Positions 23,293 through 47,004 are shown, counted from the stretch's first letter. The stretch is 61,825 nt of DNA from a virus (IMGVR_UViG_3300010397_000010:1-61825); one strand, 5' to 3'. The notes: generated from the sequence alone by a model not told the origin. Translations and numbers: made by a program.

Positions 23293-23495
23293 TACCTCAC
23301 CCTTGGCATGTTGAGAGATTGCCCGCCGCTGCCAACAAAGCTCATTAGGATCCAAATGAGAAATATAGCAGCTATCACCACCAATACAACGGTAGCGACT
23401 TTTCTCATCGGCTCTGGTAAGAGGTTGTTGATGATGTAGTAGAGGGCACCTAAGACGATGCACGCCACAAGAGTGTATATGAGTATGCTAACCAT
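23292..23495 (-). CDS. 2-TM protein, holin candidate
   Basis: Two hydrophobic helices joined by LPEP. Confidence 0.6.
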   Translation of the reverse strand: MVSILIYTLVACIVLGALYYIINNLLPEPMRKVATVVLVVIAAIFLIWILMSFVGSGGQSLNMPRVR

Positions 23496-23507: not shown

Positions 23508-23864
23508 TCACGACTTTTGGATCGTGGATAATGCGAATAGTTTACTCCCCTTTGAGATAATCAGATCGACGCACTGCTCAGAAAAAACGCCATAAATGGC
23601 CGCGCTGAACGGCCCTATGGGGCCGGAAAGGTGAGCATGGATTCCAACCCATGCGAGCACGTCGTTCAGAGGCGTGGTGTCTCGCCAAATCCAAAGGAAC
23701 AGCCCGAGCGATACGACAAAGTTTATGATTGCATCCCCCGCATGACCCATCAGGTAGCTATACACGCTGTTCCAGGGCGTGTACCTATTGTCTGCCGAGA
23801 GAGTTGCTCTCTTAGTCAACGACCCTAAACCGCCGATAAGGTAGAAGATGAGCAGAGTGGTCAT
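23508..23864 (-). CDS. Multi-TM protein, holin candidate
   Basis: About 3 hydrophobic segments, directly after the endolysin. Confidence 0.55.
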   Translation of the reverse strand: MTTLLIFYLIGGLGSLTKRATLSADNRYTPWNSVYSYLMGHAGDAIINFVVSLGLFLWIWRDTTPLNDVLAWVGIHAHLSGPIGPFSAAIYGVFSEQCVDLIISKGSKLFALSTIQKS

Positions 23865-24352
23865 GCAGGTATGTCTCTCGCTCGATTGAGTAATCCTTCG
23901 AGTGGATATGTCCTACCTTCCGAAGCTGCGAATGCAGCGGCCCTTTTGTAATGTTCAATCTGAGCGTGGCATATTGCATCTATGAGGATATCTGGATTAC
24001 ATGAATTCATGCGTTCTATGGTAAGAGGGCCGATATTGCCATCCTGTCTAACGTTGACGAGCTTTTGGATGTCCTTGGCAAATCCCCTTCCGATATTCAC
24101 CAAACAATCCATCGCTTTCGACGCGACCTCTTGGGAGGTTAATTGGTCGAGCTTAAAAGGAAGCCAATATTCGGTGAAATAAATCTCCTTCGCCCCTTTA
24201 AGTGTCAAATGTTCAACATCAACATGAGGGTGATAGCGTTGAGAGATGCCCCATTTAGTCAGCCTTCCTCCTCTATCCCAAGTAACTTTGCCGGATAAAG
24301 TGGAATCCTCATGCTTCATGACGAACTTGAATGCGGGCTCAAACTCAGCCAT
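23861..24352 (-). CDS. Endolysin, glycoside hydrolase family 108
   Basis: HE...DRGG.LTKWGIS, AKEIYFTEYW, VNIG, DGNIGPLT, GLLNR. Confidence 0.88.
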   Translation of the reverse strand: MAEFEPAFKFVMKHEDSTLSGKVTWDRGGRLTKWGISQRYHPHVDVEHLTLKGAKEIYFTEYWLPFKLDQLTSQEVASKAMDCLVNIGRGFAKDIQKLVNVRQDGNIGPLTIERMNSCNPDILIDAICHAQIEHYKRAAAFAASEGRTYPLEGLLNRARDIPA

Positions 24353-24354
24353 TC

Positions 24355-24558
24355 TCAATCCCCCTTCACCATCACCCCGAGTTCATGGAACTCAGCCGAA
24401 TCCTTCTCAGTCAACAGCTTATCGAATGGGATTTCAGGGTCAAGCGGGATACAGGTTCTAGGGAGAGTAATCGGCCCATCACACCTTAAACGATGTCCGG
24501 CCCATATGGCAGCACTCCAGAACACATCCCCACAAGCCGCGCACTTAACTCTTTGCAT
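24355..24558 (-). CDS. Small Zn-finger protein
   Basis: AGGAG SD; CAACG...H..RC. Confidence 0.55.
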   Translation of the reverse strand: MQRVKCAACGDVFWSAAIWAGHRLRCDGPITLPRTCIPLDPEIPFDKLLTEKDSAEFHELGVMVKGD

Positions 24559-24568
24559 CGCTATACTC

Positions 24569-24780
24569 CTACTTCGCAACCCTAACCTTCCCAAAGATGG
24601 CTCCCCTGATCTCATCATCGCTTATGCACCCGCTTTCTACAATCTGGTCGGGCGTCATTACCGTTCGCAGGACTTCATAAGGCATCTTGATAAGGGTTCC
24701 GATCAAATCCCAGTGCCGCTCACACAGGGATGAAGTCACCCCGGTTCAGCCTTATCCCCACAAATGTCGCAAGGGCGCAT
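24569..24780 (-). pseudogene. Zn-finger ORF interrupted by a 1-nt frame break
   Basis: MRPCDICGDKAEPG* continues in the -1 frame as VTSSLCERHWDL...VAK*. Confidence 0.45.
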
Positions 24781-24782
24781 AC

Positions 24783-25028
24783 CTAGTCCGAATCTTTATT
24801 GAGATCGCTATACCTACGTTGGGCCATTCGCTTTTCCATCTCGTCAATCTTGTCCCATAGTCGAGTAATCAACTCTTGTAACGATTTCAACTGTGTCGAG
24901 TAGACCGCGTTTTGATTTGCGATGGCCGTCATCAAATCTTCTTTGCTGACGGAGTGAGTTGCCCAGGCTCCAATTAGGGTTATAACCACTCCCCCTAGAA
25001 ACGCCGAAATCGTAATCCATACATCCAC
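24783..25028 (-). CDS. TM plus coiled-coil protein (holin/hemolysin-like)
   Basis: N-terminal TM, heptads, RRYSD tail. Confidence 0.6.
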   Translation of the reverse strand: MDVWITISAFLGGVVITLIGAWATHSVSKEDLMTAIANQNAVYSTQLKSLQELITRLWDKIDEMEKRMAQRRYSDLNKDSD

Positions 25029-25052: not shown

Positions 25053-25385
25053 CTAAATTTTGTTCGCGCTGTTAACTTTTGGCGGCACATCGTCTCCGCA
25101 CGTCACCCACCTGCCGTCAACATAAAGCCCATCGCCACCAGAGAGTTCACATTCAGCTTCATAGTCCATCAGAGGAAAGGGCTCATTCGTCACCGTTTCC
25201 GCGCATTCCTCCGAACACTTAGGACAGTCGCAAATCCATGTGGTGTAGCCAGGACACACTATCTCGCGACACTTATCATTGGCGTTGTTCGTACCGTCTG
25301 CGTAAGTTGTGGTGCCATGATCGACTCCAGCGTTGAGCAATGGTGGTGCGAGCACGAAGATGAGAAACAGAACAAATGGTTTCAT
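25053..25385 (-). CDS. Secreted Cys-rich protein
   Basis: MKPFVLFLIFVLAPPLLNA signal peptide; 8 Cys; ATGA coupling. Confidence 0.7.
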   Translation of the reverse strand: MKPFVLFLIFVLAPPLLNAGVDHGTTTYADGTNNANDKCREIVCPGYTTWICDCPKCSEECAETVTNEPFPLMDYEAECELSGGDGLYVDGRWVTCGDDVPPKVNSANKI

Positions 25386-26908
25386 CGACGTGCCCTTTTC
25401 TTCGCCTTCACATGGCGATGGGTTCTCATGGCTGCTCCACTGCAATTGCTCATCATTAAGACTCTCATCTTATTCCAAGGGATGACATTTAATGCTCCAT
25501 AAGCATTAGAATCGTAAGGTACGCCAACGGATGACCATTTCGGCACGCCTGCGTTCTGATCCGTTACCCCATACACCACCACAACGCCTGAGAAATCCCG
25601 ATTATACGCACCATAAGTTTGGAGGGCTTTAGCGATAATCTTGATCCACTGCGGCCAGTTCTGCGCGTCCACATTGAATGAAGGATCGAGTTGAATTCTA
25701 GCTCCCTGCGGAAGCGCGGAGGTGCTCCCTGCAATCTCATCGTGATGAGTAGCGGGGCAAGCGAAATATCCTCCCGTCCTATTGTAAGGAGTCGCGATAG
25801 CTAAGGCGTGGTCGATATGACCTGCGGCAATCTCCTCTGGCCTAACCGCTCCACCAAGGCCGCTGAATCCCGCCGCGACGTTGCTCAGACAATGCTGACC
25901 ACTTGGGCAAGCCGCACCCCATCCTTTGAGGTCATTAATATAAGCTCCTGCGGCTGACCATGAGCCATTCGAATATGAGGCTTCCCACATATCCAGCTCC
26001 TTCCCTGCGTAAGGGGAACCATCTTGCGCCATGTAGGCCACGACTAAATGATGATCGCTCCCGGTAGCGGGGACAGTTCCAGAAGGAATCGGGAAATTAA
26101 GCGTCATCCCTACAGGCCCATTACAATACTGAGTACACTTGACGGAGTAAATCGGATCTCCCGCCTTCGCATAAGCGAGGGCCATCCCATATCCCCCATT
26201 AGAGAAGGTGATATTCTTCGAGAGCTGATTCAGAATGCTCTGTTGGATCATCGTCGAAGAGTTAGGATCGATGGATGGATTCGGAGGGATAGGGGTATTC
26301 CAAAAGCTAGTCGGAGAGTAGATTCCAGAGGTATTCGGAGGAGGAGTAGGAGTTGATCCATTGTTGATGGTGAAGGTGGCGGTATCAACCTCACCTGAGG
26401 GAGACACTTTCTGCGTAATGGTGTGCTGACCATTTCCTACTTTAGTGGTGTCCCAAGGATTAGCGATTGAGGTTGATGCTGAAGTGGCATAGTCATACGG
26501 CGCTAATGTCTCACAATGCGTCGCCGTTCCGCTCATCGATGGATTATCGAGCCAATAACACACACCACTGATTCCGACTGGGTTAGGATTCGATGGATTT
26601 CCCGAAGGAGCGGTGAATATGTAGGCGTTCCCTCCAATCGTCAATCCATTCAGCCCAATCCCCCCACTCCGATTAGCCTGACCGCTTTCCGCTAGCGTAT
26701 AAGTGGCGGTGGGCGAGGGAATGGGAGTCGAGGTAATCGTGCACGTTGACAAAGAAGTGCATGAGCATGAGCAATTCGCCCCCGCTATTGAGCATGAACA
26801 AGATGGAGCGATAGCCCTAAGAATACGATCTATGGGAGAATGATGCTTTTTTGCCGCTACTCCGCTCATTGTGAGCAATAAAATTGTAATCGCAATCTTA
26901 ATCTTCAT
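25382..26908 (-). CDS. Secreted protein: Cys-rich tip, Ig-like domain, uncharacterised C-terminal domain
   Basis: Signal peptide; CSCS..CSCSC; WDTTKVGNGQHTIT; SFWNTPI...DHHL...EEIAAGHIDHALA. Confidence 0.8.
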   Translation of the reverse strand: MKIKIAITILLLTMSGVAAKKHHSPIDRILRAIAPSCSCSIAGANCSCSCTSLSTCTITSTPIPSPTATYTLAESGQANRSGGIGLNGLTIGGNAYIFTAPSGNPSNPNPVGISGVCYWLDNPSMSGTATHCETLAPYDYATSASTSIANPWDTTKVGNGQHTITQKVSPSGEVDTATFTINNGSTPTPPPNTSGIYSPTSFWNTPIPPNPSIDPNSSTMIQQSILNQLSKNITFSNGGYGMALAYAKAGDPIYSVKCTQYCNGPVGMTLNFPIPSGTVPATGSDHHLVVAYMAQDGSPYAGKELDMWEASYSNGSWSAAGAYINDLKGWGAACPSGQHCLSNVAAGFSGLGGAVRPEEIAAGHIDHALAIATPYNRTGGYFACPATHHDEIAGSTSALPQGARIQLDPSFNVDAQNWPQWIKIIAKALQTYGAYNRDFSGVVVVYGVTDQNAGVPKWSSVGVPYDSNAYGALNVIPWNKMRVLMMSNCSGAAMRTHRHVKAKKRARR

Positions 26909-26917
26909 CTTTATTCC

Positions 26918-27139
26918 TCAACTTTCTTTATTCCTCAGAAACTCTGCCAGCTTGTTCGCTAACTCCCTGCTGAGGGAGTAATCAGGGTCATCGTGGAGTT
27001 TGCACGTTATCTCCCCAGTGTGATCCCCCGCGCCATCCGTAAGCAAAACCGATGCAGGGGCAATGGCGATCATCTTTCCATCTACCAACTCTTCGGGTTG
27101 GTAGACGGGGAACTTAGGTTTCATTATCGGAATCTTCAT
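26918..27139 (-). CDS. Hypothetical protein
   Basis: GAGGGA SD. Confidence 0.6.
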   Translation of the reverse strand: MKIPIMKPKFPVYQPEELVDGKMIAIAPASVLLTDGAGDHTGEITCKLHDDPDYSLSRELANKLAEFLRNKES

Positions 27140-27151
27140 TCTTTCCCTCTC

Positions 27152-28396
27152 TCATTGCCATTGCGTCTTTCCGCTCCACCGCGTCTTGCCGCTGATCTGC
27201 GTGATTGGCGGAAAGATTGAATACTGGCAACTTGTCACCGCGCTTTGACTCCATCCAGAAGTGGTCGCCGCTGATCTCAAATAGCCAGTTGCGCTAACCG
27301 TCACCGGAACGCTATAGCTCGTCGTCGGGGTGCAGGTGTTAATTGTGTCTTGACAATAAACGATGGTCGGACTGGGTGAAGTGCTCGCCAGCGCGGATGT
27401 GAACGTATAGTGGGCCGAGGTGCCCCCTACAGGAGTGCAGGTAGGAGCTACCGTCACCAGAGTATAAGTGGCACTCACTACTGAACTATTGGTGTCTCCT
27501 GCAAGCGTTCCGAGAGCTTTAATGGTCTCGCTCACGCTAACGCTTACCGGAGTGCTATAGGTAGAGCCAGCCGAGCAAGTGCCTGGAGTCGCTGCTGCCG
27601 GAGTGCTCCCATCCGTGGTGTAGCAAATCGTCGCCCCACCTGTTGTGGTGCTGATGGTCACAGATTGAGCGGCATTATAGCTACCAGCGACGGGCGAGAA
27701 TGTTGGATCATCTACGGGCGGTGCGCCTTTTAAAGTGACGATCACGCATCCGTAAAATCTTGCGTTGCTGGATGATGCCGTGGCCGCGTAAGCTCCGGTA
27801 GAAGATACGTTGCGATCTTCCAGAATCATCAGCGGAGGGCCACCGCTTAGGTTCCCCTGCCTAGACGTATAATTGGTACCTGCGGTGATGGTGGAAACAC
27901 TCCCATTGGAGTAGCAGCCGCCTACCAGCAACTCAGTGGCTGCTGTGGTGGTTGCGGTGTTCGAGGTAGTCCAGCTTGTAGTTGATGTGCTATCGGTAGA
28001 GATCGCGCTTTTGTCAACATTGACGAACCCACCGGAATACTGCTCTGCAGCACATCCAAGATTGCCTGAGGTAGCGTTGCAGGTGATTACTTCACTGGCA
28101 TTGGTGGTTCCGAAGGTGGCACAGTAGAGCCAAACTTTTGCGTTGTTTCCACCATTGACCGGCCCTCCGCACACGCTGAACGTGTCGCTATTAGTGTCTG
28201 TGACGGAGGATGTTGAGCTGCTGCCTGCGCTCGTTCCAACCATCACCACAACGTTGTTGCCAGCCGTGGCACTGATCGCAGGGATATTGCAAGTGGCGCT
28301 GCTCGTGCCAGAGCACTTGTTTCCGTTGACGGGGGTCTGCGCCAGCGCGAGCGCAGATAGCCACAAGAGAGCCACGACAATCGGCGCAATCCGCAT
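27152..28396 (-). CDS. Secreted Ser/Thr-rich protein with Fn3-associated (chitobiase C-terminal-like) repeats
   Basis: MRIAPIVVALLWLSALALA/Q; PTFSPVAGSY...ICYTTDGSTP; TAATG coupling. Confidence 0.82.
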   Translation of the reverse strand: MRIAPIVVALLWLSALALAQTPVNGNKCSGTSSATCNIPAISATAGNNVVVMVGTSAGSSSTSSVTDTNSDTFSVCGGPVNGGNNAKVWLYCATFGTTNASEVITCNATSGNLGCAAEQYSGGFVNVDKSAISTDSTSTTSWTTSNTATTTAATELLVGGCYSNGSVSTITAGTNYTSRQGNLSGGPPLMILEDRNVSSTGAYAATASSSNARFYGCVIVTLKGAPPVDDPTFSPVAGSYNAAQSVTISTTTGGATICYTTDGSTPAAATPGTCSAGSTYSTPVSVSVSETIKALGTLAGDTNSSVVSATYTLVTVAPTCTPVGGTSAHYTFTSALASTSPSPTIVYCQDTINTCTPTTSYSVPVTVSATGYLRSAATTSGWSQSAVTSCQYSIFPPITQISGKTRWSGKTQWQ

Positions 28397-31300
28397 TAGT
28401 TCACCACCTGATAGCTGAAGCACTCTGGATTAGTGATAGGGGCTACTCCAATTGTGAGTGTAAAACTAGTAGCTGCCGTCCTCGCCGTAACCTGCCAAGG
28501 AGCACTCAGGAGTGCAGTATTACAGGTTACGCCAAGTGCGGTGCCCAAGGTTGCATCATTATTTATCAGAATGACGCTATTGGCCGTCACTGCTGTAGTG
28601 TTCACTGTGATACTGGTTGATCCCGCCGGAACATTAAACATCCCCACTGGAGCCGATCCACACACCGCTGGAGATGCAGACGAGGCGCATTTCGTCCCAA
28701 ACACGAGATGATTAGTGTCGAAGATCGTGTTCCCCGTTGCGCTGCTATTCAGGCTGAGTGGTGTGGTGATGCTCGTCGGATCAATGTTATTTCCGTCGAT
28801 CGTATTGTTGTTGCTGGTTGAATCGACGGCAACTCCCGTAGTGGCCGCACCATATAGCTTGTTGCTTGAAATGATATTCCTTGTCGAAGCAATCAGATCA
28901 ACCAAGGTGGACGCATTGCCTGACTTACCGTAAACCATGTTCCCAGTTACAAGGTTGTTCGATGTGGTGTCCAGAACAATCGTTTTTTGATTGCTGCCGA
29001 TGGTGGTGTTGCGAATGCTATTTCCACTCCCTGTGTGAACATAGAATATGTCTGAGGTCGTGGCACCCTTCTGCCCGATCAGTCCATCGAACCCGATACC
29101 CGTACTCCCTTCAATGTCGATGACATGAGAAGAGCTGCCCGTATTCGATGTCCACCCTCCAAGGAATTCTATGTTATACGCTTGGCTTGAAGATCCTCCG
29201 GTGACGTTATTCACATAAATACAAGCCACACCACAGCCATCCAACACATAGTTCGTAATGTGAATGTCGTCGCACGCAAATGATGTCCCGGTGCAGTTCG
29301 TCGGGTTGATGTAGACGCCATAATCCGTTGTAGCTGTCTCTAAACCATCAATGAAAATGTCATTGATCGCCGTCCCGTAGAGATAAAACCCCTTCATGTG
29401 ATTAGCCGATGAAGCGCCGTTATCGGCCACGAAGTCGTGAGTGAAAAACGTCGAGTTACTTGGTAAACCGCTCGTCGTATCCACACAGAACCCACACGTT
29501 GGCGTGGTACCAACAGTGTCGTTTTGTGCGACATTATCAATTACATTCGCGTTCACCGCGCTGTAGAAGTAAAAGTTCTGCACATGGCGATCAGACTCCA
29601 CTCCGCGAATTTCACCGAACATCGTGTATGTGAACGAGACGCCGGTTGCTGTACCCGTAGGCGCTACAGTCCTAATCGCCGTAAAGTCTTTGAGATAAGG
29701 GCCAAAGAGTGTAGTTCCAGAGGTTCCCGCAACCGATACAATCGTGCTGGTTGCACTATTTGACACGATCCGTGACGAGCCAGAATAGGCCCACCGTGCT
29801 CCAGTCCAGCCTGATTTCGCAGTTCCCTCAATGCCCACAAAGTTAGGGTTGCCATTCGACACAGAGATAGTGAGCGTCGAAGAACCGATGAGATAGTCTC
29901 TATCCAGAAGCTTTAAATGGCCACCTAAACTCAATGCGTTGATGGCGTTCTGCAAAGCCACATGGTCATCGGTGCCGGTTGTGCCGTTCCAATCTCCTTT
30001 CGCGTTCCACCACTCTCCAAACACTTCATTAGTCGCTGTGCCGAACTTGATCGCTCCCGTTCCACTCAGGCTGAACACTTGAGACATCGGAGCAGAGAAT
30101 CCTCCATTGATTGTGACCGTGGTGGAGGTTGGGACAACGAAGAATCCGCCCTCCATGATGACTGGAACAGAGAAGGTCAGGTTCGAGGCGATCTTGTATC
30201 CGCTCCCACTAACCTGAGTGAAGATAATTCCGCCAGTACAGGTCGATTGTGCTGTGTTCAATAAGGCTCGATTATCAGTGGTGCCATCATCCAACGCCCC
30301 AAGGGCCGCAGCGGAGCATTTCAATCCCGATGGAGCGCACGAGCCTTGCGTCGATCCGAGGTAACAGTGTGAACTTCCATCCCCACCGATCCACTGCGAA
30401 GCGTCGTAGCCACTGGGAAGAAGCACATTCCAGTAAGTTGCGTTCGGAGGAGCATTGCCAGTGGTCGAGGCGATAGCGATGTAATGAACGCCGCTGGAAG
30501 TGACCGCATCGTTGATAGCATAGGCCGTCGCTCCGTTGTATGCGCCCTTGCCGCTTGGAGTGCCCCACGTCTGCTTCGTCATATCCAGTCGGGTGAGCGA
30601 CCCGTCGTTGACTTGGAAAGGCTCGCTGCTGGTCACGACTCCCGCCGTGGTTATTCCGTCGTCAATATGCGAAGTAGAAGAGAGAGTCGAACTTGATGCC
30701 CACGTCGTCAGATAGCCGGTTGTGCCGGAGCCGGTGACTTTACCGTTGAGCTGCGTCTGGATGCTGCTGGTTGCATCGTTATAGGCCATTACGGTTGGCG
30801 TTACTCCATCCACTGTTTTGCCCGTCAGGGTGGATGGAATGTCCGCATCCGTAAGGGATTGATACCCCGGCGCGGCGGTTGAGCCGGTGTTATTTCCCCA
30901 AAACTTATGCGCGCCAGCGGTGGCGAGAGTGGCTGTCACTGCTCCAGTCGAACTGCTATTACTCAAAAGTGATCCATCGCCACTGAAGCTGCTCACGCCG
31001 CCAGAAGTTCCGTTGCTTGCTGCCGTGATCCTGCCCTTGGCATCTACGGTCAGATTCGTATTCGTGTAGCTTCCTGGCGACACGGCGGTATCGTTTAACG
31101 AGATGTTCGGAGTTGCTCCACCGCTTGAAGCAATCGGAGCGGTCGCAGTGACGTTCGTAACGCTTCCCGCGCTCGCTGCGTGCCATACTCCATCTGCGCC
31201 GCAATACTGAGTAGAGCTTCCCCCTGTAGGACAGGTCACAACCTGGGAGTTGGCGCTGCTCGCGCTGGTGATCGGTGTCCCGCCATTGATTGCGATTGAT

Positions 31301-32730
31301 GGCGCGGTCACTGCTCCTCCAAAGCTAACTTTTCCTGTTCCCGTCTTGATAGCGTAGTCCGTCGATCCCGCTCCCTGATCGTCGATCAACAGAGCATCGG
31401 ATTCCGTCGATCCACCATGAACATCCCCGATCTGGATTCCTTTTAAGGTCTGCCCATGAATCGCCCCTCCCATCTCATTTCGAATATCAATCCCTCTTAC
31501 ATCGCCACTCCCGAAGCCAGTGTTCAAGCCCATTTTTAGGCCAATGGTGTCAATGCCTGCGCCGGTTGCGGGATTATAGGCGTCGATAGCGACTGGGTTT
31601 ACATCCAAACTTAGGGCCGTTGTATTGTCGCTACGGAAGCCAGTCACCCCTCCATTAGAAAAGTTGTTACTCTGGTAATCCCCGCCCAAACTTATGATCC
31701 CGTCATTGTTGTGAACAATAAAAGGAATCGCCGCCCCAGTAGAGAAGATGTTCACCTGCGTCTCATGATGAGTTGGGAGAGGGCAAGACGCGCCGCACTT
31801 GAATACAGTTTGCCCACCTTCCACCTTGAGCGCGAAGTCGGTCGAGCCTGCTCCCTGATCGAGAATATGCAATGCATCCGATTCCGTCGAAGCTCCGCTA
31901 ACATCTCCAATCTCAGCCCCCACCTTATTGACCGCAAGATCAGGCATACTCTCCACAAGGACGCCATACAAGTCTTGCGGAGTTCCCGAATACTTCTTCG
32001 CCTGAACATCAACTCCGATAGCGGATTTCCCATCCACCGCCTCTGCCTCGACGATTAAAGGAGTCGAGTCTGATGTGGGATTGTCCGTGTCCCGCGTAAG
32101 GATTGATAAGCCATCTCCCGAGGTAGATGTAAGGTTCGCGCTCGATCCATCCGTTATGAACAAATCTCCATTGACGTTATCCACCACGAGGGAGCCGCCA
32201 CTATCGGCTCCAACCTCTAACCTTCCGCTTACGCGACCGAAAATAGCATCCCCACTCCCCCCAAATGTCCCAAGGGGATCGTTGAATTGGAGAGAGAATT
32301 GAGGGACTCCGGGTGTCGCTCCCCCACCTCCACCCCCGCTGCTCAAGGCTACTTTGATCGTCACCGGATTTAGGTATACATTAGGAGCAATCCCCCCACT
32401 CAGCACGACATCATAAGTTTGCCCGATGGCTGCATAAGCGAGCCAATATCCAGGTTGAGTCGATGAAGAGTTGTTAGCTGTGAATGGATTCCCGAGATGA
32501 GTGCCAATTGCGTCAGAATAGAGAGTAGCCTTAGTCAGAGTGCCCGTTAGGTAGATTGTCACTGAGCAGGAAGGGATGACTCCATCCAGATAGTTCGAGC
32601 TACTCAATCCCGACACTACAGCCTTAGTAGCTCCCTTTTGGCACCACCCATTAAGGGGCGCTACTTGGGCCATTCCCATAAGAGAAAAAGTCATTATGCC
32701 TAACAGGACTAATATCGCCTTCTTCATCAA
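28396..32730 (-). CDS. Tailspike-like protein with pectate-lyase-type beta-helix and N-terminal signal peptide
   Basis: TIYLTGTLTKATLYSD...NPFTA anchor-like domain; PGSYTNTNLTVDAKGRITAA fibre motif; AKGD..GTDDHVALQNAI beta-helix start; N-rich repeats. Confidence 0.8.
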   Translation of the reverse strand: MMKKAILVLLGIMTFSLMGMAQVAPLNGWCQKGATKAVVSGLSSSNYLDGVIPSCSVTIYLTGTLTKATLYSDAIGTHLGNPFTANNSSSTQPGYWLAYAAIGQTYDVVLSGGIAPNVYLNPVTIKVALSSGGGGGGATPGVPQFSLQFNDPLGTFGGSGDAIFGRVSGRLEVGADSGGSLVVDNVNGDLFITDGSSANLTSTSGDGLSILTRDTDNPTSDSTPLIVEAEAVDGKSAIGVDVQAKKYSGTPQDLYGVLVESMPDLAVNKVGAEIGDVSGASTESDALHILDQGAGSTDFALKVEGGQTVFKCGASCPLPTHHETQVNIFSTGAAIPFIVHNNDGIISLGGDYQSNNFSNGGVTGFRSDNTTALSLDVNPVAIDAYNPATGAGIDTIGLKMGLNTGFGSGDVRGIDIRNEMGGAIHGQTLKGIQIGDVHGGSTESDALLIDDQGAGSTDYAIKTGTGKVSFGGAVTAPSIAINGGTPITSASSANSQVVTCPTGGSSTQYCGADGVWHAASAGSVTNVTATAPIASSGGATPNISLNDTAVSPGSYTNTNLTVDAKGRITAASNGTSGGVSSFSGDGSLLSNSSSTGAVTATLATAGAHKFWGNNTGSTAAPGYQSLTDADIPSTLTGKTVDGVTPTVMAYNDATSSIQTQLNGKVTGSGTTGYLTTWASSSTLSSTSHIDDGITTAGVVTSSEPFQVNDGSLTRLDMTKQTWGTPSGKGAYNGATAYAINDAVTSSGVHYIAIASTTGNAPPNATYWNVLLPSGYDASQWIGGDGSSHCYLGSTQGSCAPSGLKCSAAALGALDDGTTDNRALLNTAQSTCTGGIIFTQVSGSGYKIASNLTFSVPVIMEGGFFVVPTSTTVTINGGFSAPMSQVFSLSGTGAIKFGTATNEVFGEWWNAKGDWNGTTGTDDHVALQNAINALSLGGHLKLLDRDYLIGSSTLTISVSNGNPNFVGIEGTAKSGWTGARWAYSGSSRIVSNSATSTIVSVAGTSGTTLFGPYLKDFTAIRTVAPTGTATGVSFTYTMFGEIRGVESDRHVQNFYFYSAVNANVIDNVAQNDTVGTTPTCGFCVDTTSGLPSNSTFFTHDFVADNGASSANHMKGFYLYGTAINDIFIDGLETATTDYGVYINPTNCTGTSFACDDIHITNYVLDGCGVACIYVNNVTGGSSSQAYNIEFLGGWTSNTGSSSHVIDIEGSTGIGFDGLIGQKGATTSDIFYVHTGSGNSIRNTTIGSNQKTIVLDTTSNNLVTGNMVYGKSGNASTLVDLIASTRNIISSNKLYGAATTGVAVDSTSNNNTIDGNNIDPTSITTPLSLNSSATGNTIFDTNHLVFGTKCASSASPAVCGSAPVGMFNVPAGSTSITVNTTAVTANSVILINNDATLGTALGVTCNTALLSAPWQVTARTAATSFTLTIGVAPITNPECFSYQVVN

Positions 32731-32744
32731 AACTCCCTCACCAT

Positions 32745-32782
32745 AAAAAATGGCCTTTAGAGACTTAAATCTCTAAGGCCAT
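32745..32782 (-). terminator. Hairpin plus T-run directly ahead of the tailspike SD
   Basis: ATGGCCTTAGAGA...TCTCTAAAGGCCATTTTTT on - strand. Confidence 0.55.
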
Positions 32783-32847: not shown

Positions 32848-33795
32848 TTAAGGAGAAATAGTCGAGCTAAGGGGCCCTCCCACCATAGAGGATGCAACAC
32901 TTTTCCCTTTCCTCCTCTCCCATCCCACTTCAGAAGGAGTTATCGAGGTTGGGTGATGGCATATTTTGGCAAAGGGACAGGGGGAGTAATGGAAGCAGGC
33001 TGACCTTCTCATTGAGAGCGATTTCTTCTCAATCTCATCCGCAATCTGAGTCATTTCGGCTAATATCTCCCCCCTCTTAGGCGGAGAGTAGTCCACATTG
33101 ATCGTATGCACTATCCCCTCGAATGCGTTATCGGACTGCATCAGTTTGAGCCATTCCAAGGCGCTCAGATCAGTCTGCTCCCTATATCGTCGCTGCCACC
33201 TCGGGCCGAATTTCTTTACATGAATCGGCTGGATTCTCATCCCTCCAGTCTCAGGATGAGTGAAGGAGGTTGTCCACGGGGATGGACGATAACCCTTCCT
33301 AAGCTGCCCAATTTCGATAATGTTGATAAACATAGGAAGTTTCATCGAGTAAATATCGCCTATAGTGCGCCATGACGATAATTCCTCCTGCTCCCTCAAG
33401 GGAGTCCAATTCGCCGTCAATACCACTCTTCGAAGGCGATTATCAGGCAGAATGAATGACAATGGCTGGTAGCTGAATCCACTAACCTTCGTCCACGGAC
33501 ATAGCTTCCACGCTCCCGTCGCGCCCACCAAATAAGCACAAATAGTCTCGATTAAGTTGGCGTGATGAGTCGCTTGGGCATAGATGTCCCATCCATTGAT
33601 ATCGAGCCCCGGATTGGCTGCGAGAGAGATGAAGTGTTCTCTCGCTCCAGTAGGGGAGTTGGTTAGCAATCCCACCCTAAGGGACTCATTGAGCGCGGAA
33701 TGGAGGGGGATGCGAGGAAGCTCGAATTTAGATGACCAAGTTTGCTTCCTTGGGCATTGATCGAACCTCATCAGATCGTCTGAATCGAGCATCAT
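32848..33795 (-). CDS. Cas4-like protein with Fe-S-type cysteines, catalytic motif apparently lost
   Basis: FDQCPRK and CFHYSPCPFAKIC mirror 17647-18981; no PD..D/ExK found. Confidence 0.6.
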   Translation of the reverse strand: MMLDSDDLMRFDQCPRKQTWSSKFELPRIPLHSALNESLRVGLLTNSPTGAREHFISLAANPGLDINGWDIYAQATHHANLIETICAYLVGATGAWKLCPWTKVSGFSYQPLSFILPDNRLRRVVLTANWTPLREQEELSSWRTIGDIYSMKLPMFINIIEIGQLRKGYRPSPWTTSFTHPETGGMRIQPIHVKKFGPRWQRRYREQTDLSALEWLKLMQSDNAFEGIVHTINVDYSPPKRGEILAEMTQIADEIEKKSLSMRRSACFHYSPCPFAKICHHPTSITPSEVGWERRKGKSVASSMVGGPLSSTISP

Positions 33796-37570: not shown

Positions 37571-37572
37571 AT

Positions 37573-38070: not shown

Positions 38071-38131
38071 CTCATGCGCTCCTTAACATTAGCATTCTAC
38101 CTTTAAGTGCCTAACTTTTCGAGCAGTTTCG

Positions 38132-43615: not shown

Positions 43616-43915
43616 CTATTGAGCGGTTTCGTAGAGAATATCCACTTTCTCGCCTGAAGTTCCAAGGATATACCACGAACTCAGAAGGGAGCCTCTGATA
43701 GTCTCGAAGTTGAGCACTAACGGTGTTCCGGGGGAGCCCGTAGCGAGGCCAATTCCCGTAGTCGAGGTTACCGAGGAGTCTCCAATCCTAATCGTATGCC
43801 CTGAGGCATTCCCAATTACAAGAAGGCTGACATAGATTTGCTCCGAAGATGTCGAGTTTAGGTTGGGGGAGATCGCCGTGGCTCCACTCCCAAGCGTAAG
43901 CTGAAGAATTCTCAT
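43616..43915 (-). CDS. Small structural protein
   Basis: IRIGDSSVTSTTGIGL beta-sandwich pattern. Confidence 0.6.
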   Translation of the reverse strand: MRILQLTLGSGATAISPNLNSTSSEQIYVSLLVIGNASGHTIRIGDSSVTSTTGIGLATGSPGTPLVLNFETIRGSLLSSWYILGTSGEKVDILYETAQ

Positions 43916-45279
43916 TAAGATTGCTCCTTTAACGCATACCGAGGATCTACCTCGGACTGTCTACTCACAGGCGGTCGGAGGGTGGTTGCGAATATCCCAC
44001 TCTCCCTCACCCTTCGATTCGAGTCCATCGCGGCTTGGATGAAGTTTTGATGCAGCGGAATCGAATGAAGGAACTCTTGCCCTCCATGCCTGAATTGGGC
44101 CAAGTGTTCCGCTTCATCCAATATCGCATTGATATTCTCTCGCGGAAGCTGAACATAATCTCCATCCGCTACCGGGACTGGCGCACTACCCACCAGAGAT
44201 AAGCTAACACTAACATTCCCACTAGGTTTGGGGGAGACAGCAAAGAGATCAATTCCCCCTCTAACAATTCCCATTTGAGCATCAGATCGAGATTCCCACC
44301 CCAAATCATACTGATCCATCTCCTCCACCGCAGGGGAGTCACAGGGGACATTATCAATCCTCGCCTGCATCAACCAAGGAAGCTCCATCATCAACCTTAT
44401 TCCTTCTTGGAACCTTTGTTCGGCATAACTCGCCCTCATTCTATCGTTCGATTCAGCTTCCTTGCTAAGGAGGTCGCTAATCATCCCCCACTTCATCACC
44501 CATGCCCAATCATCGGGGATAAGGAGTGGGGAAGGGGAGCTTACGGTGCTGCCGCCCAAGATGGCTAGAATATCGAGCGAATTCGGTTGATTCGCTAAGG
44601 TGTCGAACGTGATTGCCTGGGGAGGGGAGCCTAAAATTCCCCACGCCATCGGATCTCCGCTCTCCTGAGGAAAGTCGGGCGAGAAATATTCCATCGCCAA
44701 CGTGTCATCCCTGAAGAGAGTGATTGGATCTCCGCTCGCAGGGAGATATCTCACTCTTCGAATGTCCAATATCCCTAAGGAAGTCGAATCCGGAAGCTGA
44801 ACTCGATTAGTCCCCGGTACAATACTCAGAGAGGGCGAGAATAAGCCAACATTCGCAGCGGTTAGTTGAAGGATTTGATCCCTTCTCCTCTTGAATGATT
44901 GAGTTAGGTCGTTCAGCGAGAATTGATTCGTTCCCGTCCATGTTGCTCCCGTTGGAGGTTCCAAGAGGTGATATTCGATCAGAGTGTATAGATCGACATC
45001 ACTTAGCGTCTGATAGCGAGGACTCGACGAGTTGGCTCCCACTAAGGAATTCGCGCTATTAGCTAGGGACTGCCATTCCTTATCCGTTGAGCCGAACGTC
45101 TCCGTCCACTCCACCACATACCATTGAGTGATCGCGTTCCACGACCTTAGGGATTCCCCAAGGAGCACCTTAAGCTCCCCATCCGTCCAACACACATTTC
45201 CCACATCATTCAGCCTCAGCGCGAGGGCTTGCCGAAGCTGAATCCATGTGAGATAGCTATATGGGGCAGTGGGGGGCAT
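43915..45279 (-). CDS. Head-tail adaptor-like protein
   Basis: LRQALALRLND..WTDGEL; PLLIPDDW. Confidence 0.6.
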   Translation of the reverse strand: MPPTAPYSYLTWIQLRQALALRLNDVGNVCWTDGELKVLLGESLRSWNAITQWYVVEWTETFGSTDKEWQSLANSANSLVGANSSSPRYQTLSDVDLYTLIEYHLLEPPTGATWTGTNQFSLNDLTQSFKRRRDQILQLTAANVGLFSPSLSIVPGTNRVQLPDSTSLGILDIRRVRYLPASGDPITLFRDDTLAMEYFSPDFPQESGDPMAWGILGSPPQAITFDTLANQPNSLDILAILGGSTVSSPSPLLIPDDWAWVMKWGMISDLLSKEAESNDRMRASYAEQRFQEGIRLMMELPWLMQARIDNVPCDSPAVEEMDQYDLGWESRSDAQMGIVRGGIDLFAVSPKPSGNVSVSLSLVGSAPVPVADGDYVQLPRENINAILDEAEHLAQFRHGGQEFLHSIPLHQNFIQAAMDSNRRVRESGIFATTLRPPVSRQSEVDPRYALKEQS

Positions 45280-45286
45280 TCTCTCG

Positions 45287-45397
45287 TTAAGCCTTCTTTA
45301 GAATAGATTTCGTCGCCCCAACCTTCCCACCGGGGGCTTTCTTGTTAAGGAATTTCGATGGAGTAGACTTGAATGCTTTCAACTTTAGTTTGCTCAT
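45287..45397 (-). CDS. 36-aa Lys-rich peptide
   Basis: MSKLKLKAFKSTPSKFLNKKAPGGKVGATKSILKKA*; AAGGGG SD. Confidence 0.6.
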   Translation of the reverse strand: MSKLKLKAFKSTPSKFLNKKAPGGKVGATKSILKKA

Positions 45398-45400
45398 TTT

Positions 45401-45481
45401 CTATTTCCCCTTCTTAGGTGATTTGACTGGTGCTGGAGCTTTAGGGATAACATTCTTCCCCGACTTGAAGCAATCTTTCAT
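45401..45481 (-). CDS. 26-aa Lys-rich peptide
   Basis: MKDCFKSGKNVIPKAPAPVKSPKKGK*; GGAG SD, ATGA coupling. Confidence 0.5.
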   Translation of the reverse strand: MKDCFKSGKNVIPKAPAPVKSPKKGK

Positions 45482-45648
45482 TTCTTAGTCTCCATTTTCT
45501 TCTTTCCATTCTTTTCCGAATGCTTGACCTTATGCTCTTTGCCTGCCACTACAACATTCTTCGCATGAGTTGGGATACCGTGGATATGAGTATACGCACG
45601 ATATTTCCTATACTTCTCCGCGTTCTCGAAATGTTCGGTAGGAGGCAT
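45478..45648 (-). CDS. 56-aa Lys/His-rich peptide
   Basis: MPPTEHFENAEKYRKYRAYTHIHG...KKKMETKK*. Confidence 0.6.
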   Translation of the reverse strand: MPPTEHFENAEKYRKYRAYTHIHGIPTHAKNVVVAGKEHKVKHSEKNGKKKMETKK

Positions 45649-45650
45649 CC

Positions 45651-46001
45651 CTAGCCCCTCTTCCTCGCCATCTTGCGATCAGCCTTCTTCGTCTGCTTCA
45701 CCGTCAGAACGCGCTCTCCGCGATGTACCCGAGCAATTCCAGTCTTGCGAACCTTCCCGCCCTTTTTGTACGAATCAGGCTCAGCAGCAGTTTCATTCCT
45801 AAGTCTCGCCGTACTCCCACCGAATCCCTTAGTCTGCTTCAGCGCTGAAGTCTCCCTCTTCCCCTGCTCCGCGATATACTCGCGCTTCTTCTGAGGATTC
45901 GCTATCGAAGCTGCCTTCGTCCCGCGATACTTAGCCAAATCCGCTCTCTCCTTCTCGGCGCTTTCAGCCTTCTCTTCAGCAGAATCATCAGACATTTTCA
46001 A
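45651..46001 (-). CDS. Basic virion-associated protein
   Basis: YKKGGKVRKTGIARVHRGERVLT motif. Confidence 0.75.
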   Translation of the reverse strand: MKMSDDSAEEKAESAEKERADLAKYRGTKAASIANPQKKREYIAEQGKRETSALKQTKGFGGSTARLRNETAAEPDSYKKGGKVRKTGIARVHRGERVLTVKQTKKADRKMARKRG

Positions 46002-46011
46002 TTCTCCCTTA

Positions 46012-47004
46012 CTACATATTCCTTGAGCTAACCATTCCCGTGGCCGGGTCGAATGTGCTGACCGCTCTCACTCCCGATATGCGAGTCATTGTGGAGCGCC
46101 ACATATCCACTCTATCTCGATCCATCGACCTTATCTCTTTCAATTGTGATTGAGCTTGAGCCTGCGCTGCGCCAATGAGGAATCTGAAGTCTGCTCCATT
46201 CCCTCTCGGATTAGCGGAGTCCTTATTTCCTTCGCACCATTCGTAAGCACGAACTCTCGCCATCGCCTTTACCAAGCTCTCGGTGATCGGAAAGGGGAGA
46301 GTGTCAGAGGGATTCGTGAGATCAGGCCCCATTCGACTGAACCACGTCGAATAGACATACTGAGCTTGAGGTTGAGGATAGAGTTCCATCATCAATCGCC
46401 CAAATGTCGCTGATCCTGGTCGATCATCTATCCCATGAGGAATCACCATCAGAGGATTCGAGAATATCTGCCTTTGGGGATCACATCGATTGACATAATC
46501 CGTCGCCCCCCTTGCATTCGACACATTCAGATAGATGACGTTATTCGTGTCTAGCACATCTTCCCACGCCTCAAAGTCATCCACGGGGACAGGATAATAG
46601 CATTGATAGATGGAGTAATGAATCCCACTCCCTACGGTAAGATCAATATAAGGCCGATCAAGAGTAAGCTCTCCTGTTGTCCCATCCATAGCGATGATGT
46701 TATAAATAGTCCCCGCGCCGACCCTAAATTGGCGCTGAGTGATTAGCGATACCGGAGTGGATGCAGCAAGCCATAACGCCTGCGCGGTCGCATCAGACTG
46801 GACGAGATTGCTTCCAAGGGTAACGGTGCATGTTCCGCCATTGACTAAGGAAGGAGTGGCGAATCCCGATGAGCCTAATTGAAAACTCCATCCCCTCAGG
46901 TTGCGGATATCCACCCACGCCTCACGAACATGGGTGCGGGCAAGTAGGGCGCTATAAGCAGGAACGCAACCGCGTAACTCAGCCACCATAGTCGAGAGCG
47001 ACAT
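46012..47004 (-). CDS. Head-tail adaptor-like protein
   Basis: MVAELRGCVP..., MELYPQP; follows capsid genes. Confidence 0.6.
   Translation of the reverse strand: MSLSTMVAELRGCVPAYSALLARTHVREAWVDIRNLRGWSFQLGSSGFATPSLVNGGTCTVTLGSNLVQSDATAQALWLAASTPVSLITQRQFRVGAGTIYNIIAMDGTTGELTLDRPYIDLTVGSGIHYSIYQCYYPVPVDDFEAWEDVLDTNNVIYLNVSNARGATDYVNRCDPQRQIFSNPLMVIPHGIDDRPGSATFGRLMMELYPQPQAQYVYSTWFSRMGPDLTNPSDTLPFPITESLVKAMARVRAYEWCEGNKDSANPRGNGADFRFLIGAAQAQAQSQLKEIRSMDRDRVDMWRSTMTRISGVRAVSTFDPATGMVSSRNM

What the first reader, a model, noticed from the sequence alone, without database searches (positions are those of the whole stretch)
25053..32730. Operon of Sec-signal-bearing virion-type proteins, including the tailspike
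Seen: four of five consecutive genes start with classic signal peptides (MKKAILVLLGIMTFSLMGMA/Q, MRIAPIVVALLWLSALALA/Q, MKIKIAITILLLTMSGVAA, MKPFVLFLIFVLAPPLLNA). All four carry many Cys, often paired, and the three large ones are Ser/Thr-rich. In the 1444-aa protein the signal is followed by what looks like a podoviral spike anchor domain, fibre motifs and a beta-helix depolymerase. The block has its own upstream regulatory region and runs into the lysis genes. Established: tailspikes normally fold and attach in the cytoplasm without signal peptides. Inference: this phage may export its receptor-binding appendages to the periplasm (disulfides, perhaps O-glycosylation) and attach them during or after lysis. 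Alternatively it may secrete depolymerase or adhesins for egress or superinfection exclusion.
Basis: partly seen in the sequence, partly recalled or inferred. Interest (0 to 1): 0.85.

Follow-up and report, generated by a model that had tools for sequence, protein, structure and literature searches.

The report
Phage tail spikes carrying export signals
A soil phage of Acidobacteria, and many of its relatives, put classic secretion signals and paired cysteines on their tail-spike-like proteins, which suggests that the host-recognition parts are made outside the cytoplasm where the rest of the virus particle is built.

Summary
The window is a whole 61.8-kb phage genome, distantly related to the Acidobacteriota podophages Tunturi 1/2.

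- **Signals:** four of five tightly coupled genes (25053-32727, minus strand) begin with Sec-type signal peptides. They are the only 4 of 59 ORFs >=100 aa that do.
- **Conservation:** the 1443-aa protein has a conserved N-domain with two co-varying cysteines. About 80 homologues share this domain but have variable enzymatic C-termini. Nearly all carry a signal that is conserved in character, not in sequence.
- **Export:** in related loci, 55 of 61 signal-bearing proteins have an even cysteine count in the mature part. Signal-less proteins split 102 even, 133 odd. This points to periplasmic disulfide folding.
- **Spike identity:** the N-domain resembles the anchor of solved podophage tail spikes (Pan3, Pam1) and the N-termini of many phage depolymerases. 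In relatives its gene sits next to adaptor-like tail genes.

My best reading (about 55%) is that these are exported, disulfide-bonded tail spikes that join cytoplasmic particles once holin opens the membrane. The main rival (about 30%) is secreted, non-virion envelope enzymes. I found no published report in three literature searches. Virion proteomics on Tunturi 1/2 would decide.

The parts
32745..32782 (-). Terminator-like hairpin (14 bp with one bulge) followed by U6. It lies between the Cas4-like gene (32848-33795) and gpA.
   Evidence: MFE -21.3 kcal/mol; 3 of 200 shuffles fold as well. The simple scan did not flag it, because of the bulge.
28396..32727 (-). gpA, 1443 aa. Layout: signal peptide (res 1-20), conserved anchor-type N-domain (about 21-125, Cys29 and Cys54), Gly linker, repeat and fibre region, CBM5/12-like segment (about 729-766), right-handed beta-helix-like region (about 1200-1340), C-terminal domain.
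32668..32727 (-). gpA signal peptide MKKAILVLLGIMTFSLMGMA, predicted cleavage before Gln21.
   Evidence: 44 of 49 family members are flagged by the heuristic, and the other 5 are explained by start calls (by eye).
27152..28396 (-). gpB, 414 aa. Signal peptide (res 1-19, ..ALA/Q), a Ser/Thr-rich domain, then CHB_HEX_C_1/Fn3_assoc beta-sandwich domain(s). 14 Cys.
   Evidence: PF13290 E 3.3e-13, res 235-307.
26918..27139 (-). gpC, 73 aa, acidic, no signal peptide, 1 Cys. No family found.
25382..26908 (-). gpD, 508 aa. Signal peptide (res 1-19), a Cys-rich stretch, a repeat-type beta domain (about 60-190), and a well-modelled C-domain (about 190-490) from a very large, unnamed, mostly bacterial extracellular family. 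The C-domain weakly resembles MltA/expansin (double-psi barrel) folds.
   Evidence: phrog_17388 'minor tail protein', E 1.5e-11; 3802 hits at E<=1e-3; (best Z 4.8).
25053..25385 (-). gpE, 110 aa. Signal peptide (res 1-19, ..LNA/G), 8 Cys in 91 mature residues. No family found.
23508..25028 (-). Lysis genes directly downstream: 81-aa Rz-like ORF (24783-25028), GH108 endolysin (23861-24358), holin-like membrane ORF (23508-23864).
   Evidence: PF05838 E 7e-13; phrog_315 E 1e-30; phrog_739 E 0.0017.
43915..47004 (-). Two adaptor-like tail genes (330 aa at 46012-47004; 454 aa at 43915-45279). In most relatives the gpA-family gene sits next to these.
   Evidence: PF24175 SU10_adaptor: E 2.4e-4, below cut-off; E 4e-7, above cut-off.

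Best explanation
The block encodes the phage's receptor-binding and envelope-active apparatus, made as exported proteins.

**Steps close to shown**
1. gpA, gpB, gpD and gpE are translated with cleavable Sec-type (SPase I) signal peptides and are translocated unfolded into the periplasm.
2. They fold there with disulfide bonds.

**Supported by homology and synteny**
3. gpA is a modular tail spike. A conserved N-terminal anchor domain of the podophage tail-spike type is followed by fibre segments and a beta-helix-like enzymatic or binding part.

**Inferred**
4. The cytoplasmic, spike-less particles meet the periplasmic spikes only when the holin opens the inner membrane, and the anchor domain then docks on the adaptor/nozzle.
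5. gpB, gpD and gpE either ride on gpA or act as free periplasmic helpers.
6. A plausible selective reason is that disulfide-stabilised spikes survive acidic, protease-rich soil, and such bonds can only be formed outside the reducing cytoplasm.
For: **Export**
- The four proteins are the only 4 of 59 ORFs >=100 aa with a signal score >=4.5.
- The gpA N-domain family has 51 database homologues and 33 distinct proteins in 46 IMG/VR loci.
- A signal is flagged in 44 of 49 homologues that carry the motif, and in 24 of 33 locus proteins by heuristic plus 8 more by eye.
- The signal region is unconserved in sequence but conserved in character. The alignment becomes conserved from the A-x-A/Q site onward.
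- Among distinct proteins >=200 aa in related loci, 55 of 61 signal-bearing ones have an even, non-zero Cys count in the mature part, 6 are odd and 0 have none (binomial p 5e-11). Signal-less proteins split 102 even, 133 odd, 59 none.
- The two N-domain Cys co-vary: both present in 45, both lost in 3, one lost in 1.

**Spike identity**
- The N-domain profile hits the Pan3 'Tail spike protein' (9vyg m/n/o, E 0.01).
- The Foldseek top hits are the Pan3 and Pam1 tail complexes.
- The wide search top hit is Pam1 7eeq_A (Z 7.3, rmsd 2.6, 80 residues). The P22 gp9 head-binding domain scores Z about 6.
- BFVD gives 11 hits at E<=1e-3, all large phage proteins; those that carry a name are pectate-lyase-superfamily proteins, a tail spike and a conserved phage protein, with an EPS depolymerase just below that cut-off.
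- Family C-termini vary (SGNH, Beta_helix, Pectate_lyase_3).
- The gene sits beside adaptor-like tail genes in relatives, or at the T7 gp17-like position here.
- N-domain distances track the adaptor-like protein (r 0.68, Mantel p 5e-4; partial r 0.65 given MCP; 15 genomes). This is suggestive only.
- The family is almost absent from 185,579 species genomes: 7 loci, and the 4 with a full gpA hit lie in phage contexts on Terriglobia or other MAG contigs.
- One natural variant (L022) has no signal and no Cys and starts 2 nt after the adaptor-like gene.

**Controls**
- Signal-bearing ORFs >=200 aa: HMO-2011 0 of 22; Tunturi 3 (same host strain as Tunturi 1/2) 0 of 26; Tunturi 4 2 of 24, neither a tail gene.
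- In the isolate Tunturi 2, gp12, gp13 ('tail fiber'), gp14 ('pectin lyase'), gp16 and gp17 ('virion structural protein', 34 Cys) all carry signals.
Against: - No tool here shows that any of these proteins is in a virion, and I know of no tailed phage with Sec-exported tail parts.
- Assembly after holin triggering would have to be fast or happen in a confined space.
- Fold scores for the N-domain are middling: no PDB Foldseek hit at E<=1e-3, and generic FN3/CnaB sandwiches score Z 6-6.8. The profile hit is marginal (E 0.01).
- The beta-helix is below Pfam cut-offs.
- Pantoea WceF shows that an exported tailspike-like enzyme can keep a head-binding-type N-domain without being part of a phage.
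- The signal block travels with the lysis cassette in both gene orders. This fits an egress role as well.
- gpB and gpD are built from domains common in bacterial secreted proteins.
- This phage also has a signal-less 545-aa 'virion structural protein' (38132-39769) with fibre-like composition. BLAST tagged it in none of the loci printed. It could be an ordinary receptor-binding protein.
- SignalP was not run; the signal calls rest on my own heuristic and on reading.
Confidence: 0.55

Rival explanations
1. The proteins are exported but never join the virion. They would be phage-encoded periplasmic or secreted envelope enzymes and binders made together with the lysis genes. They would cut or deacylate exopolysaccharide, O-antigen or peptidoglycan from within. 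This would free progeny from the thick acidobacterial matrix, destroy receptors on the dying cell and its debris, or exclude superinfecting phages. In this reading the conserved N-domain is an oligomerisation or cell-surface-binding module inherited from a tail spike.
For: - Export evidence as above.
- WceF precedent: a Tat-exported, trimeric, tailspike-like EPS hydrolase with a P22-type head domain (passages read).
- The signal block and the lysis cassette move together as a unit between the two gene orders.
- The gpD C-domain family is huge and mostly bacterial, with 53 of 150 representatives flagged as signal-bearing. It weakly resembles MltA-type lytic transglycosylases.
- The gpB CHB_HEX_C_1 domains are typical of secreted glycosidases.
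Against: - Relatives would then have no recognisable receptor-binding protein. The other large virion proteins are either highly conserved (1104-aa protein, 47-60% identity) or Cys-free ejection-type proteins.
- The N-domain family is confined to this phage group and is not found as a bacterial gene.
- Some relatives encode a 204-aa protein that is little more than signal plus N-domain, with no enzyme part (L033-L035).
- The N-domain tracks the adaptor-like protein.
- The block takes about 12% of the genome, which is a normal share for spikes and a large one for accessory enzymes.
Confidence: 0.3
2. The hydrophobic N-termini are not cleaved export signals during infection. They would act as membrane tethers or timing devices. 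They would hold spikes at the inner membrane until holin-induced depolarisation releases them for assembly, in the manner of a signal-arrest-release sequence.
For: - Phages do use N-terminal membrane segments as timing devices in SAR endolysins (established knowledge, recalled).
- The block is co-located with the lysis genes.
Against: - The h-regions are Leu/Ile/Val/Phe-rich, not Gly/Ala-rich.
- They are followed almost invariably by an A-x-A/Q-type site exactly where the conserved mature domain begins.
- A tether that left the body in the cytoplasm would not explain the even-cysteine parity.
Confidence: 0.08
3. Artefact: the true starts lie downstream of the hydrophobic stretches, so there are no signal peptides.
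For: ORF callers often extend to the longest start. Several database homologues have miscalled starts.
Against: - Each start has its own RBS or a stop/start overlap.
- There is no alternative start between the leader and the conserved domain, other than Met residues inside the h-region.
- The leader is present in frame in nearly all homologues, although its sequence is not conserved.
Confidence: 0.02

Closest known systems
Podophage tail spikes with an N-terminal particle-binding domain (cyanopodophage Pan3 tail spike, PDB 9vyg/9vyh; Pam1 tail machine 7eeq; P22 gp9)
   Same: - A small N-terminal beta-sandwich is followed by a long variable fibre or beta-helix.
- A shared sequence motif aligns with the Pan3 spike.
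- These entries are the best fold matches.
- Modular exchange of C-termini behind a conserved N-domain.
- The gene lies next to adaptor-like genes.
   Different: - The Pan3 motif starts at residue 21 of the 745-aa chain, so there is no room for a signal peptide, and it has no Cys at the two positions.
- The family here has about 20 residues of signal plus a disulfide-type Cys pair.
- No solved spike is known to me to be Sec-exported (recalled; searches found none).
Pantoea stewartii WceF, a bacterial exopolysaccharide hydrolase with a tailspike fold (PMC7949094, passages read)
   Same: An exported protein with a tailspike-type head domain, neck and trimeric beta-helix. It acts on the producer's own polysaccharide.
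   Different: - WceF uses a Tat signal (folded export), is chromosomal and sits in an EPS synthesis cluster.
- The proteins here have Sec-type signals without a twin-arginine motif.
- They are phage-encoded, sit in the virion/lysis module, and occur as a family with swapped C-termini.
Sec-exported phage proteins of tailed phages that are not virion parts (spanins, SAR endolysins, lipoproteins such as T5 Llp)
   Same: Phage genes with N-terminal export signals, expressed late or near the lysis genes.
   Different: Those are small lysis or exclusion factors (recalled knowledge). Here the exported products are 400-1443-aa, spike-like, enzyme-bearing proteins. Together they take about 7.4 kb of a 61.8-kb genome.
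Filamentous phage coat proteins (Ff pIII, pVIII)
   Same: Virion proteins made with cleavable Sec signals, with periplasmic disulfides in pIII (recalled knowledge).
   Different: Filamentous phages assemble at and through the membrane without lysis. This is a tailed, lytic podophage with terminase, portal and capsid assembly in the cytoplasm.
Tunturiibacter phages Tunturi 1/2 (PP887698, PP885685; Demina et al. 2025, PMC11924767)
   Same: - gp12 shares the signal plus N-domain (44% identity over 115 residues).
- gp12, 13, 14, 16 and 17 carry signals.
- Same virion gene set at 26-37% identity.
- Podovirus morphology.
   Different: - Distant relatives only.
- The block lies between the adaptor-like genes there, and after the Cas4-like gene here.
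- A term search of the paper's main text found no mention of signal peptides or virion mass spectrometry, and sections 18 and 19, read in full, do not mention them.

Membership tests
Sec-type (SPase I) signal peptide | Positively charged n-region, 8-15-residue uncharged hydrophobic h-region, small residues at -3/-1, polar mature start | tested here: met
   heuristic: gpA 5.1, gpB 6.5, gpD 5.9, gpE 5.4 (threshold 4.5). SignalP itself was not available.
Sec-type (SPase I) signal peptide | Conserved in character but not in sequence across homologues, ending where the conserved mature domain begins | tested here: met
   alignment; 44 of 49 flagged, the rest start-call problems by eye; 32 of 33, one true exception, L022.
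Sec-type (SPase I) signal peptide | Actual cleavage and periplasmic location | not testable with these tools
   Needs N-terminal proteomics or fractionation.
Twin-arginine (Tat) signal, as in WceF | S/T-R-R-x-F-L-K motif in the n-region | tested here: not met
   None of the four leaders has RR (and the translations). A different ORF in the lysis region does (see Noticed in passing).
Disulfide-bonded extracytoplasmic proteins | Bias to an even cysteine number in the exported part; co-varying Cys pairs | tested here: met
   20, 14, 14, 8; 55 even, 6 odd, against 102 even, 133 odd; both Cys 45, both lost 3, one lost 1.
Podophage tail spike / receptor-binding protein | N-terminal particle-binding domain of the Pan3/Pam1/P22 type | tested here: inconclusive
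   Profile E 0.01 to the Pan3 tail spike. Top fold hits are Pan3 and Pam1, but no PDB hit at E<=1e-3 and Z is 7.3 at best. BFVD gives 11 hits at E<=1e-3 to phage spike or depolymerase N-termini. Model pLDDT is 70.8.
Podophage tail spike / receptor-binding protein | Right-handed beta-helix or other receptor-binding/depolymerase body | tested here: inconclusive
   NosD E 7.5e-5 (22.7 bits, cut-off 23.6) and Beta_helix E 8.6e-4 (19.4 bits, cut-off 25.9) at about residues 1200-1340. No PDB sequence hit.
Podophage tail spike / receptor-binding protein | Presence in the virion and binding to adaptor/nozzle | not testable with these tools
   Complex prediction did not complete. Only indirect support exists: synteny and distance correlation.
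MltA-type lytic transglycosylase / double-psi beta-barrel glycan-active domain (for gpD) | Fold match and catalytic Asp | tested here: inconclusive
   The six best wide-search rows are all MltA-type, but Z is only 4.0-4.8. No Foldseek hit. Asp285 is invariant in 50 sequences, but its role is unassigned.
CHB_HEX_C_1 / Fn3_assoc beta-sandwich (for gpB) | Pfam match above the gathering score | tested here: met
   PF13290, 49.8 bits against cut-off 22; PF13287, 43.6 bits against cut-off 23.

The most novel reading that the evidence does not exclude
A whole lineage of lytic tailed phages of Acidobacteriota builds its host-recognition apparatus in a different cell compartment from the rest of the virion. 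Spikes and accessory enzymes would be Sec-exported and oxidatively folded by the host's periplasmic machinery. They would be mounted on cytoplasmic, spike-less particles only in the short interval after the holin breaches the inner membrane. If so, lysis would be an obligatory step of virion morphogenesis, and host Sec and disulfide-forming systems would be essential assembly factors.
Probability: 0.45. Interest if true: 0.92.

Novelty: new variant of a known kind. Interest (0 to 1): 0.8.

Why it matters
Tailed-phage assembly is taught as a wholly cytoplasmic pathway. If spikes are exported, several things follow.
- Lysis timing, Sec capacity and disulfide formation in the host become determinants of phage infectivity.
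- It would explain how soil phages obtain disulfide-stabilised adhesins for acidic, protease-rich habitats.
- It would warn annotators that a signal peptide does not exclude a virion protein, and the reverse.

If the rival holds, these phages devote about 12% of their genome to a secreted enzyme set. That would be a large, unrecognised viral input to polysaccharide turnover in Acidobacteria-rich soils.

Either way the question is directly testable, because Tunturi 1 and 2 are cultured isolates with the same feature.

Tried and rejected
**Searches that gave nothing**
- Sequence searches of gpA, gpB, gpD, the 330-, 454-, 545- and 1104-aa virion proteins against PDB chains gave nothing useful.
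- PHROGs and Pfam gave no family for gpA as a whole, or for gpC and gpE.
- Foldseek against PDB gave no hit at E<=1e-3 for either model.
- The ESM Atlas searches gave only weak leads, with scores 0.76-0.81 and TM about 0.5.
- No tRNA genes were found.
- The sigma-70 promoter scan found fewer sites than in shuffles and none upstream of gpA.

**Ideas tested and dropped**
- I considered that signals on tail proteins might be a general need of Acidobacteriota hosts. I rejected this: Tunturi 3 (same host strain) and Tunturi 4 have signal-less, Cys-poor tail fibres.
- I considered that the N-domain family might be an ordinary bacterial secreted family. I rejected this: only 7 loci in 185,579 species genomes, and the 4 with a full gpA hit have phage neighbours.

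**Complex prediction**
- I planned to test the N-domain with the two adaptor-like proteins. No verdict was obtained because the tool did not complete.

**Limits on what I could see**
- Three literature searches found no report of Sec-signal tail spikes, judged from listings and abstracts. This does not prove that none exists.
- I saw only the reference line of the Pan3 structure paper. The Pam1 paper was not read.
- Supplementary Table S3 of PMC11924767 (ORF annotations) may bear on this. It was closed.

Full report
**What the window is.** The 61,825-base window is a complete genome record. It has phage replication genes on the plus strand (primase, DNA polymerase, exonuclease). It has a long minus-strand late region with terminase, portal, capsid, tail and lysis genes. 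No tRNA genes were found. The nearest named relatives are the Acidobacteriota podophages Tunturi 1 and 2. They share the virion gene set at only 26-37% identity. Closer unnamed relatives exist among IMG/VR contigs, with TerL and MCP about 47-51% identical (L022, L025).

Five genes form a tightly coupled minus-strand operon.
- gpA: 1443 aa, ATG 32727, RBS GAGGGAG.
- gpB: 414 aa, start overlapping the gpA stop as TAATG.
- gpC: 73 aa.
- gpD: 508 aa.
- gpE: 110 aa, start overlapping the gpD stop as ATGA.

SignalP is not available here, so I wrote a simple heuristic. It checks charge, an uncharged hydrophobic core, the -3/-1 rule and a polar mature start. Of the 59 ORFs >=100 aa, only these four reach the working score. 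The only other ORF that reaches it is a 73-aa membrane-like protein at 3755-3976. The mature parts hold 20, 14, 14 and 8 cysteines, all even numbers and mostly in close pairs. The other virion proteins (33792-50504) hold 0-1.5% Cys, and several have none. Ser+Thr is 18.7-31.7% in the three large proteins, against a mean of 13.7% elsewhere. A 14-bp hairpin plus U6 lies in the 117-nt gap upstream of gpA. An Rz-like ORF, a GH108 endolysin and a holin-like ORF follow gpE.

**The leaders are real and conserved.** The first 140 residues of gpA find 51 proteins of 794-1756 aa. The matching DNA patterns find 46 viral contigs. Almost every homologue starts with a leader whose sequence is free but whose character is fixed. 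The alignment becomes conserved directly after an A-x-A/Q-type site. Of 49 sequences carrying the core motif, 44 are flagged by the heuristic. The other five have extended or truncated start calls, judged by eye. Of 33 distinct proteins in the viral loci, 24 are flagged and 8 more have a leader by eye. One protein, in L022, truly lacks a leader. It starts 2 nt after the adaptor-like gene and has no cysteine at all.

In relatives the neighbours of the gpA-family gene are often signal-bearing too: four in a row in L021 and L038, three in L020 and L039. In the cultured phage Tunturi 2, gp12, gp13 ('tail fiber protein'), gp14 ('pectin lyase'), gp16 and gp17 ('virion structural protein', 1280 aa, 34 Cys) all carry such leaders.

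**Export is strongly supported by cysteine statistics.** I compared distinct proteins >=200 aa in the related loci.
- The 61 signal-bearing proteins have, in their mature parts, an even non-zero Cys count in 55 cases, an odd count in 6 and none in 0 (p 5e-11).
- The 294 signal-less proteins split 102 even, 133 odd and 59 with none.

The two N-domain cysteines are either both present (45), both lost (3) or, once, singly lost. This is the pattern expected of structural disulfides. Disulfides form in the periplasm, not in the reducing cytoplasm.

**Controls argue against a host-wide or method artefact.**
- Podophage HMO-2011: 0 of 22 large ORFs flagged.
- Tunturi 3, which infects the same strain as Tunturi 1/2: 0 of 26, with signal-less, Cys-poor tail fibres.
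- Tunturi 4: 2 of 24, neither a tail gene.

**What the proteins are: gpA.** The gpA N-domain (residues 21-125) models as a beta-sandwich with pLDDT 70.8.
- Its profile gives a marginal hit to the 'Tail spike protein' chains of the cyanopodophage Pan3 tail complex (E 0.01). A shared motif aligns at residue 21 of the 745-aa Pan3 chain, which leaves no room for a leader, and Pan3 has no Cys there.
- Independently, Foldseek ranks the Pan3 and Pam1 tail complexes first (E 0.01-0.02).
- The Foldseek-free wide search ranks Pam1 7eeq_A first (Z 7.3), with the P22 gp9 head-binding domain at Z about 6. Generic FN3/CnaB sandwiches score nearly as well.
- Against predicted viral structures the domain matches large phage proteins at E down to 2e-5, 11 of them at E<=1e-3. 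Named ones among them are 'pectate lyase superfamily', 'tail spike' and a conserved phage protein, with 'EPS-depolymerase' at E 1.8e-3 just below that cut-off.

The family's C-termini vary: SGNH esterase, Beta_helix and Pectate_lyase_3 domains occur. In gpA itself, residues 701-777 match a Pelagibacter podophage tail fibre. Residues around 1200-1340 match NosD/Beta_helix just below the Pfam cut-offs.

**What the proteins are: gpB, gpC, gpD, gpE.**
- gpB carries CHB_HEX_C_1/Fn3_assoc domains.
- The gpD C-domain is well modelled and belongs to an unnamed family with 3802 hits. The family is mostly bacterial proteins joined to Ig-like or carbohydrate-binding modules, many with leaders. Its only fold leads are MltA-type lytic transglycosylases and expansin-like barrels at Z 4.0-4.8. 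That is a lead, not an assignment.
- gpC and gpE have no relatives that I could find.

**Context.** The 330-aa and 454-aa proteins match the SU10 adaptor family. The first falls below the Pfam cut-off and the second is above it. In most relatives the gpA-family gene lies directly after the 330-aa gene (plus a 130-aa gene), or directly after the 454-aa gene. In this window and some others it lies after the last virion-operon gene, a Cas4-like nuclease by its Cys motif (my reading). That position mirrors the T7 fibre gene after the internal core genes.

The signal block and the lysis cassette move together between these two arrangements. Examples are Tunturi 2 (gp12-17 then gp20-22), L019, L008 and L044.

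Pairwise distances of the N-domain correlate with those of the adaptor-like 330-aa protein (r 0.68, Mantel p 5e-4). This is stronger than the correlation with the capsid protein (r 0.55), and the partial r given the capsid is 0.65. There are only 15 genomes, and the adaptor and capsid distances are themselves collinear (r 0.96), so I treat this as suggestive.

In 185,579 species genomes the family appears at only 7 loci. The four with a full gpA hit have phage neighbours: L048, L050 and L052 lie on Terriglobia MAG contigs, and L049 lies on a contig binned with a Saccharibacteria MAG.

**How it most likely works.**
- Close to shown: Sec targeting, cleavage near A-x-A/Q, and periplasmic disulfide folding.
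- Supported by homology and synteny: gpA is the phage's tail spike, and its N-domain is the part that docks on the tail.
- Inferred: particles are completed only when the holin opens the inner membrane and the two compartments mix. gpB, gpD and gpE accompany gpA or act beside it.

I give this reading about 55%.

**Rivals.** The main rival (about 30%) is that the proteins are exported but never mounted. They would serve egress, receptor destruction or exclusion. Pantoea WceF is a precedent for an exported tailspike-like enzyme that keeps a head-binding-type domain, and the linkage to the lysis genes fits this reading.

Several points count against the rival. Relatives would be left without a recognisable receptor-binding protein. 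Some relatives have a 204-aa protein that is only signal plus N-domain. The family is restricted to phages. In this particular phage, however, a signal-less 545-aa 'virion structural protein' (38132-39769) could be a conventional receptor binder. It is shared with cyanophages and HMO-2011. BLAST tagged it in none of the loci printed.

A tether or timing role for uncleaved leaders (about 8%) and a start-codon artefact (about 2%) fit the data poorly.

**Novelty.** Three full-text searches found no report of Sec-signal-bearing tail spikes or fibres in tailed phages, judged from listings and abstracts. A term search of the Tunturi paper's main text found no mention of signal peptides or virion mass spectrometry. 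Sections 18 and 19, read in full, do not mention them either. The parts are of known kinds, but the combination is not. If the spike reading is right, the combination implies an assembly route that crosses a membrane.

Noticed in passing
window 22756-23292 (-), inside ORF 22756-23463: An internal start gives MITRRDFTLTALKG..., a twin-arginine (Tat)-like leader ending in ..MEEGC. A homologue in L037 (16022-16567) starts MNRRQFGKNAIGL...LLVEG/C, which looks like a Tat-type lipoprotein signal. The gene sits in the lysis region next to a papain-like peptidase. The pair recurs in L027 and L044.
   Followed up: partly
window 21955-22752 (-): A 265-aa protein with a partial Peptidase_C1 (papain family) match (E 3e-6) and a phrog 'peptidase' match. 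It lies at the end of the lysis region. Its role is unknown.
   Followed up: partly
window 38132-39769 (-): A 545-aa 'virion structural protein' (phrog_1645, E 7e-88). It is shared with T4-like cyanophages and Puniceispirillum phage HMO-2011. BLAST tagged it in none of the related loci printed. It has a fibre-like composition (23% Ser+Thr, 9% charged) and no signal. It may be an acquired conventional receptor-binding protein.
   Followed up: partly
window 32848-33795 (-): A 315-aa protein with an N-terminal Cys and a C-terminal C-x5-C-x5-C cluster, reminiscent of Cas4/RecB-type nucleases (my reading). Its Tunturi 2 counterpart by position is annotated as an exonuclease. It always precedes the spike block in the window-type gene order.
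   Followed up: no
L022 9965-11026: The one family member without a signal peptide also has no cysteine at all. It starts 2 nt after the adaptor-like gene. It looks like a natural cytoplasmic version of the anchor-domain protein, and the next gene (365 aa) does carry a signal.
   Followed up: partly
L033-L035, 10001-10615: A 204-aa protein consisting of little more than signal peptide plus N-domain. It lies directly after the 454-aa adaptor-like gene and is followed by a relative of the window's 116-aa protein (45651-46001).
   Followed up: no
window 58526-59794 (-); L013 8735-9886: A GT4-type glycosyltransferase. In L013 its homologue lies divergently next to the gpA-family gene.
   Followed up: no
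L056 36010-37209 (Tunturi 2 gp79, 'tail protein'): It starts MNTKILLLSLLLTGC..., a lipoprotein-type signal with a lipobox. It sits far from the virion module.
   Followed up: no
window 50952-51620 (-); L003-L005 7228-7914: An HNH endonuclease gene lies between the portal and capsid genes here. A homologue is inserted between the adaptor-like gene and the signal block in three relatives. It looks like a mobile homing-type insertion.
   Followed up: no
L038 8072-15090: Four consecutive signal-bearing proteins, including a gpA N-domain protein, lie next to a terminase that is only 23% identical to the window's. The module therefore also occurs in a more distant phage lineage.
   Followed up: no
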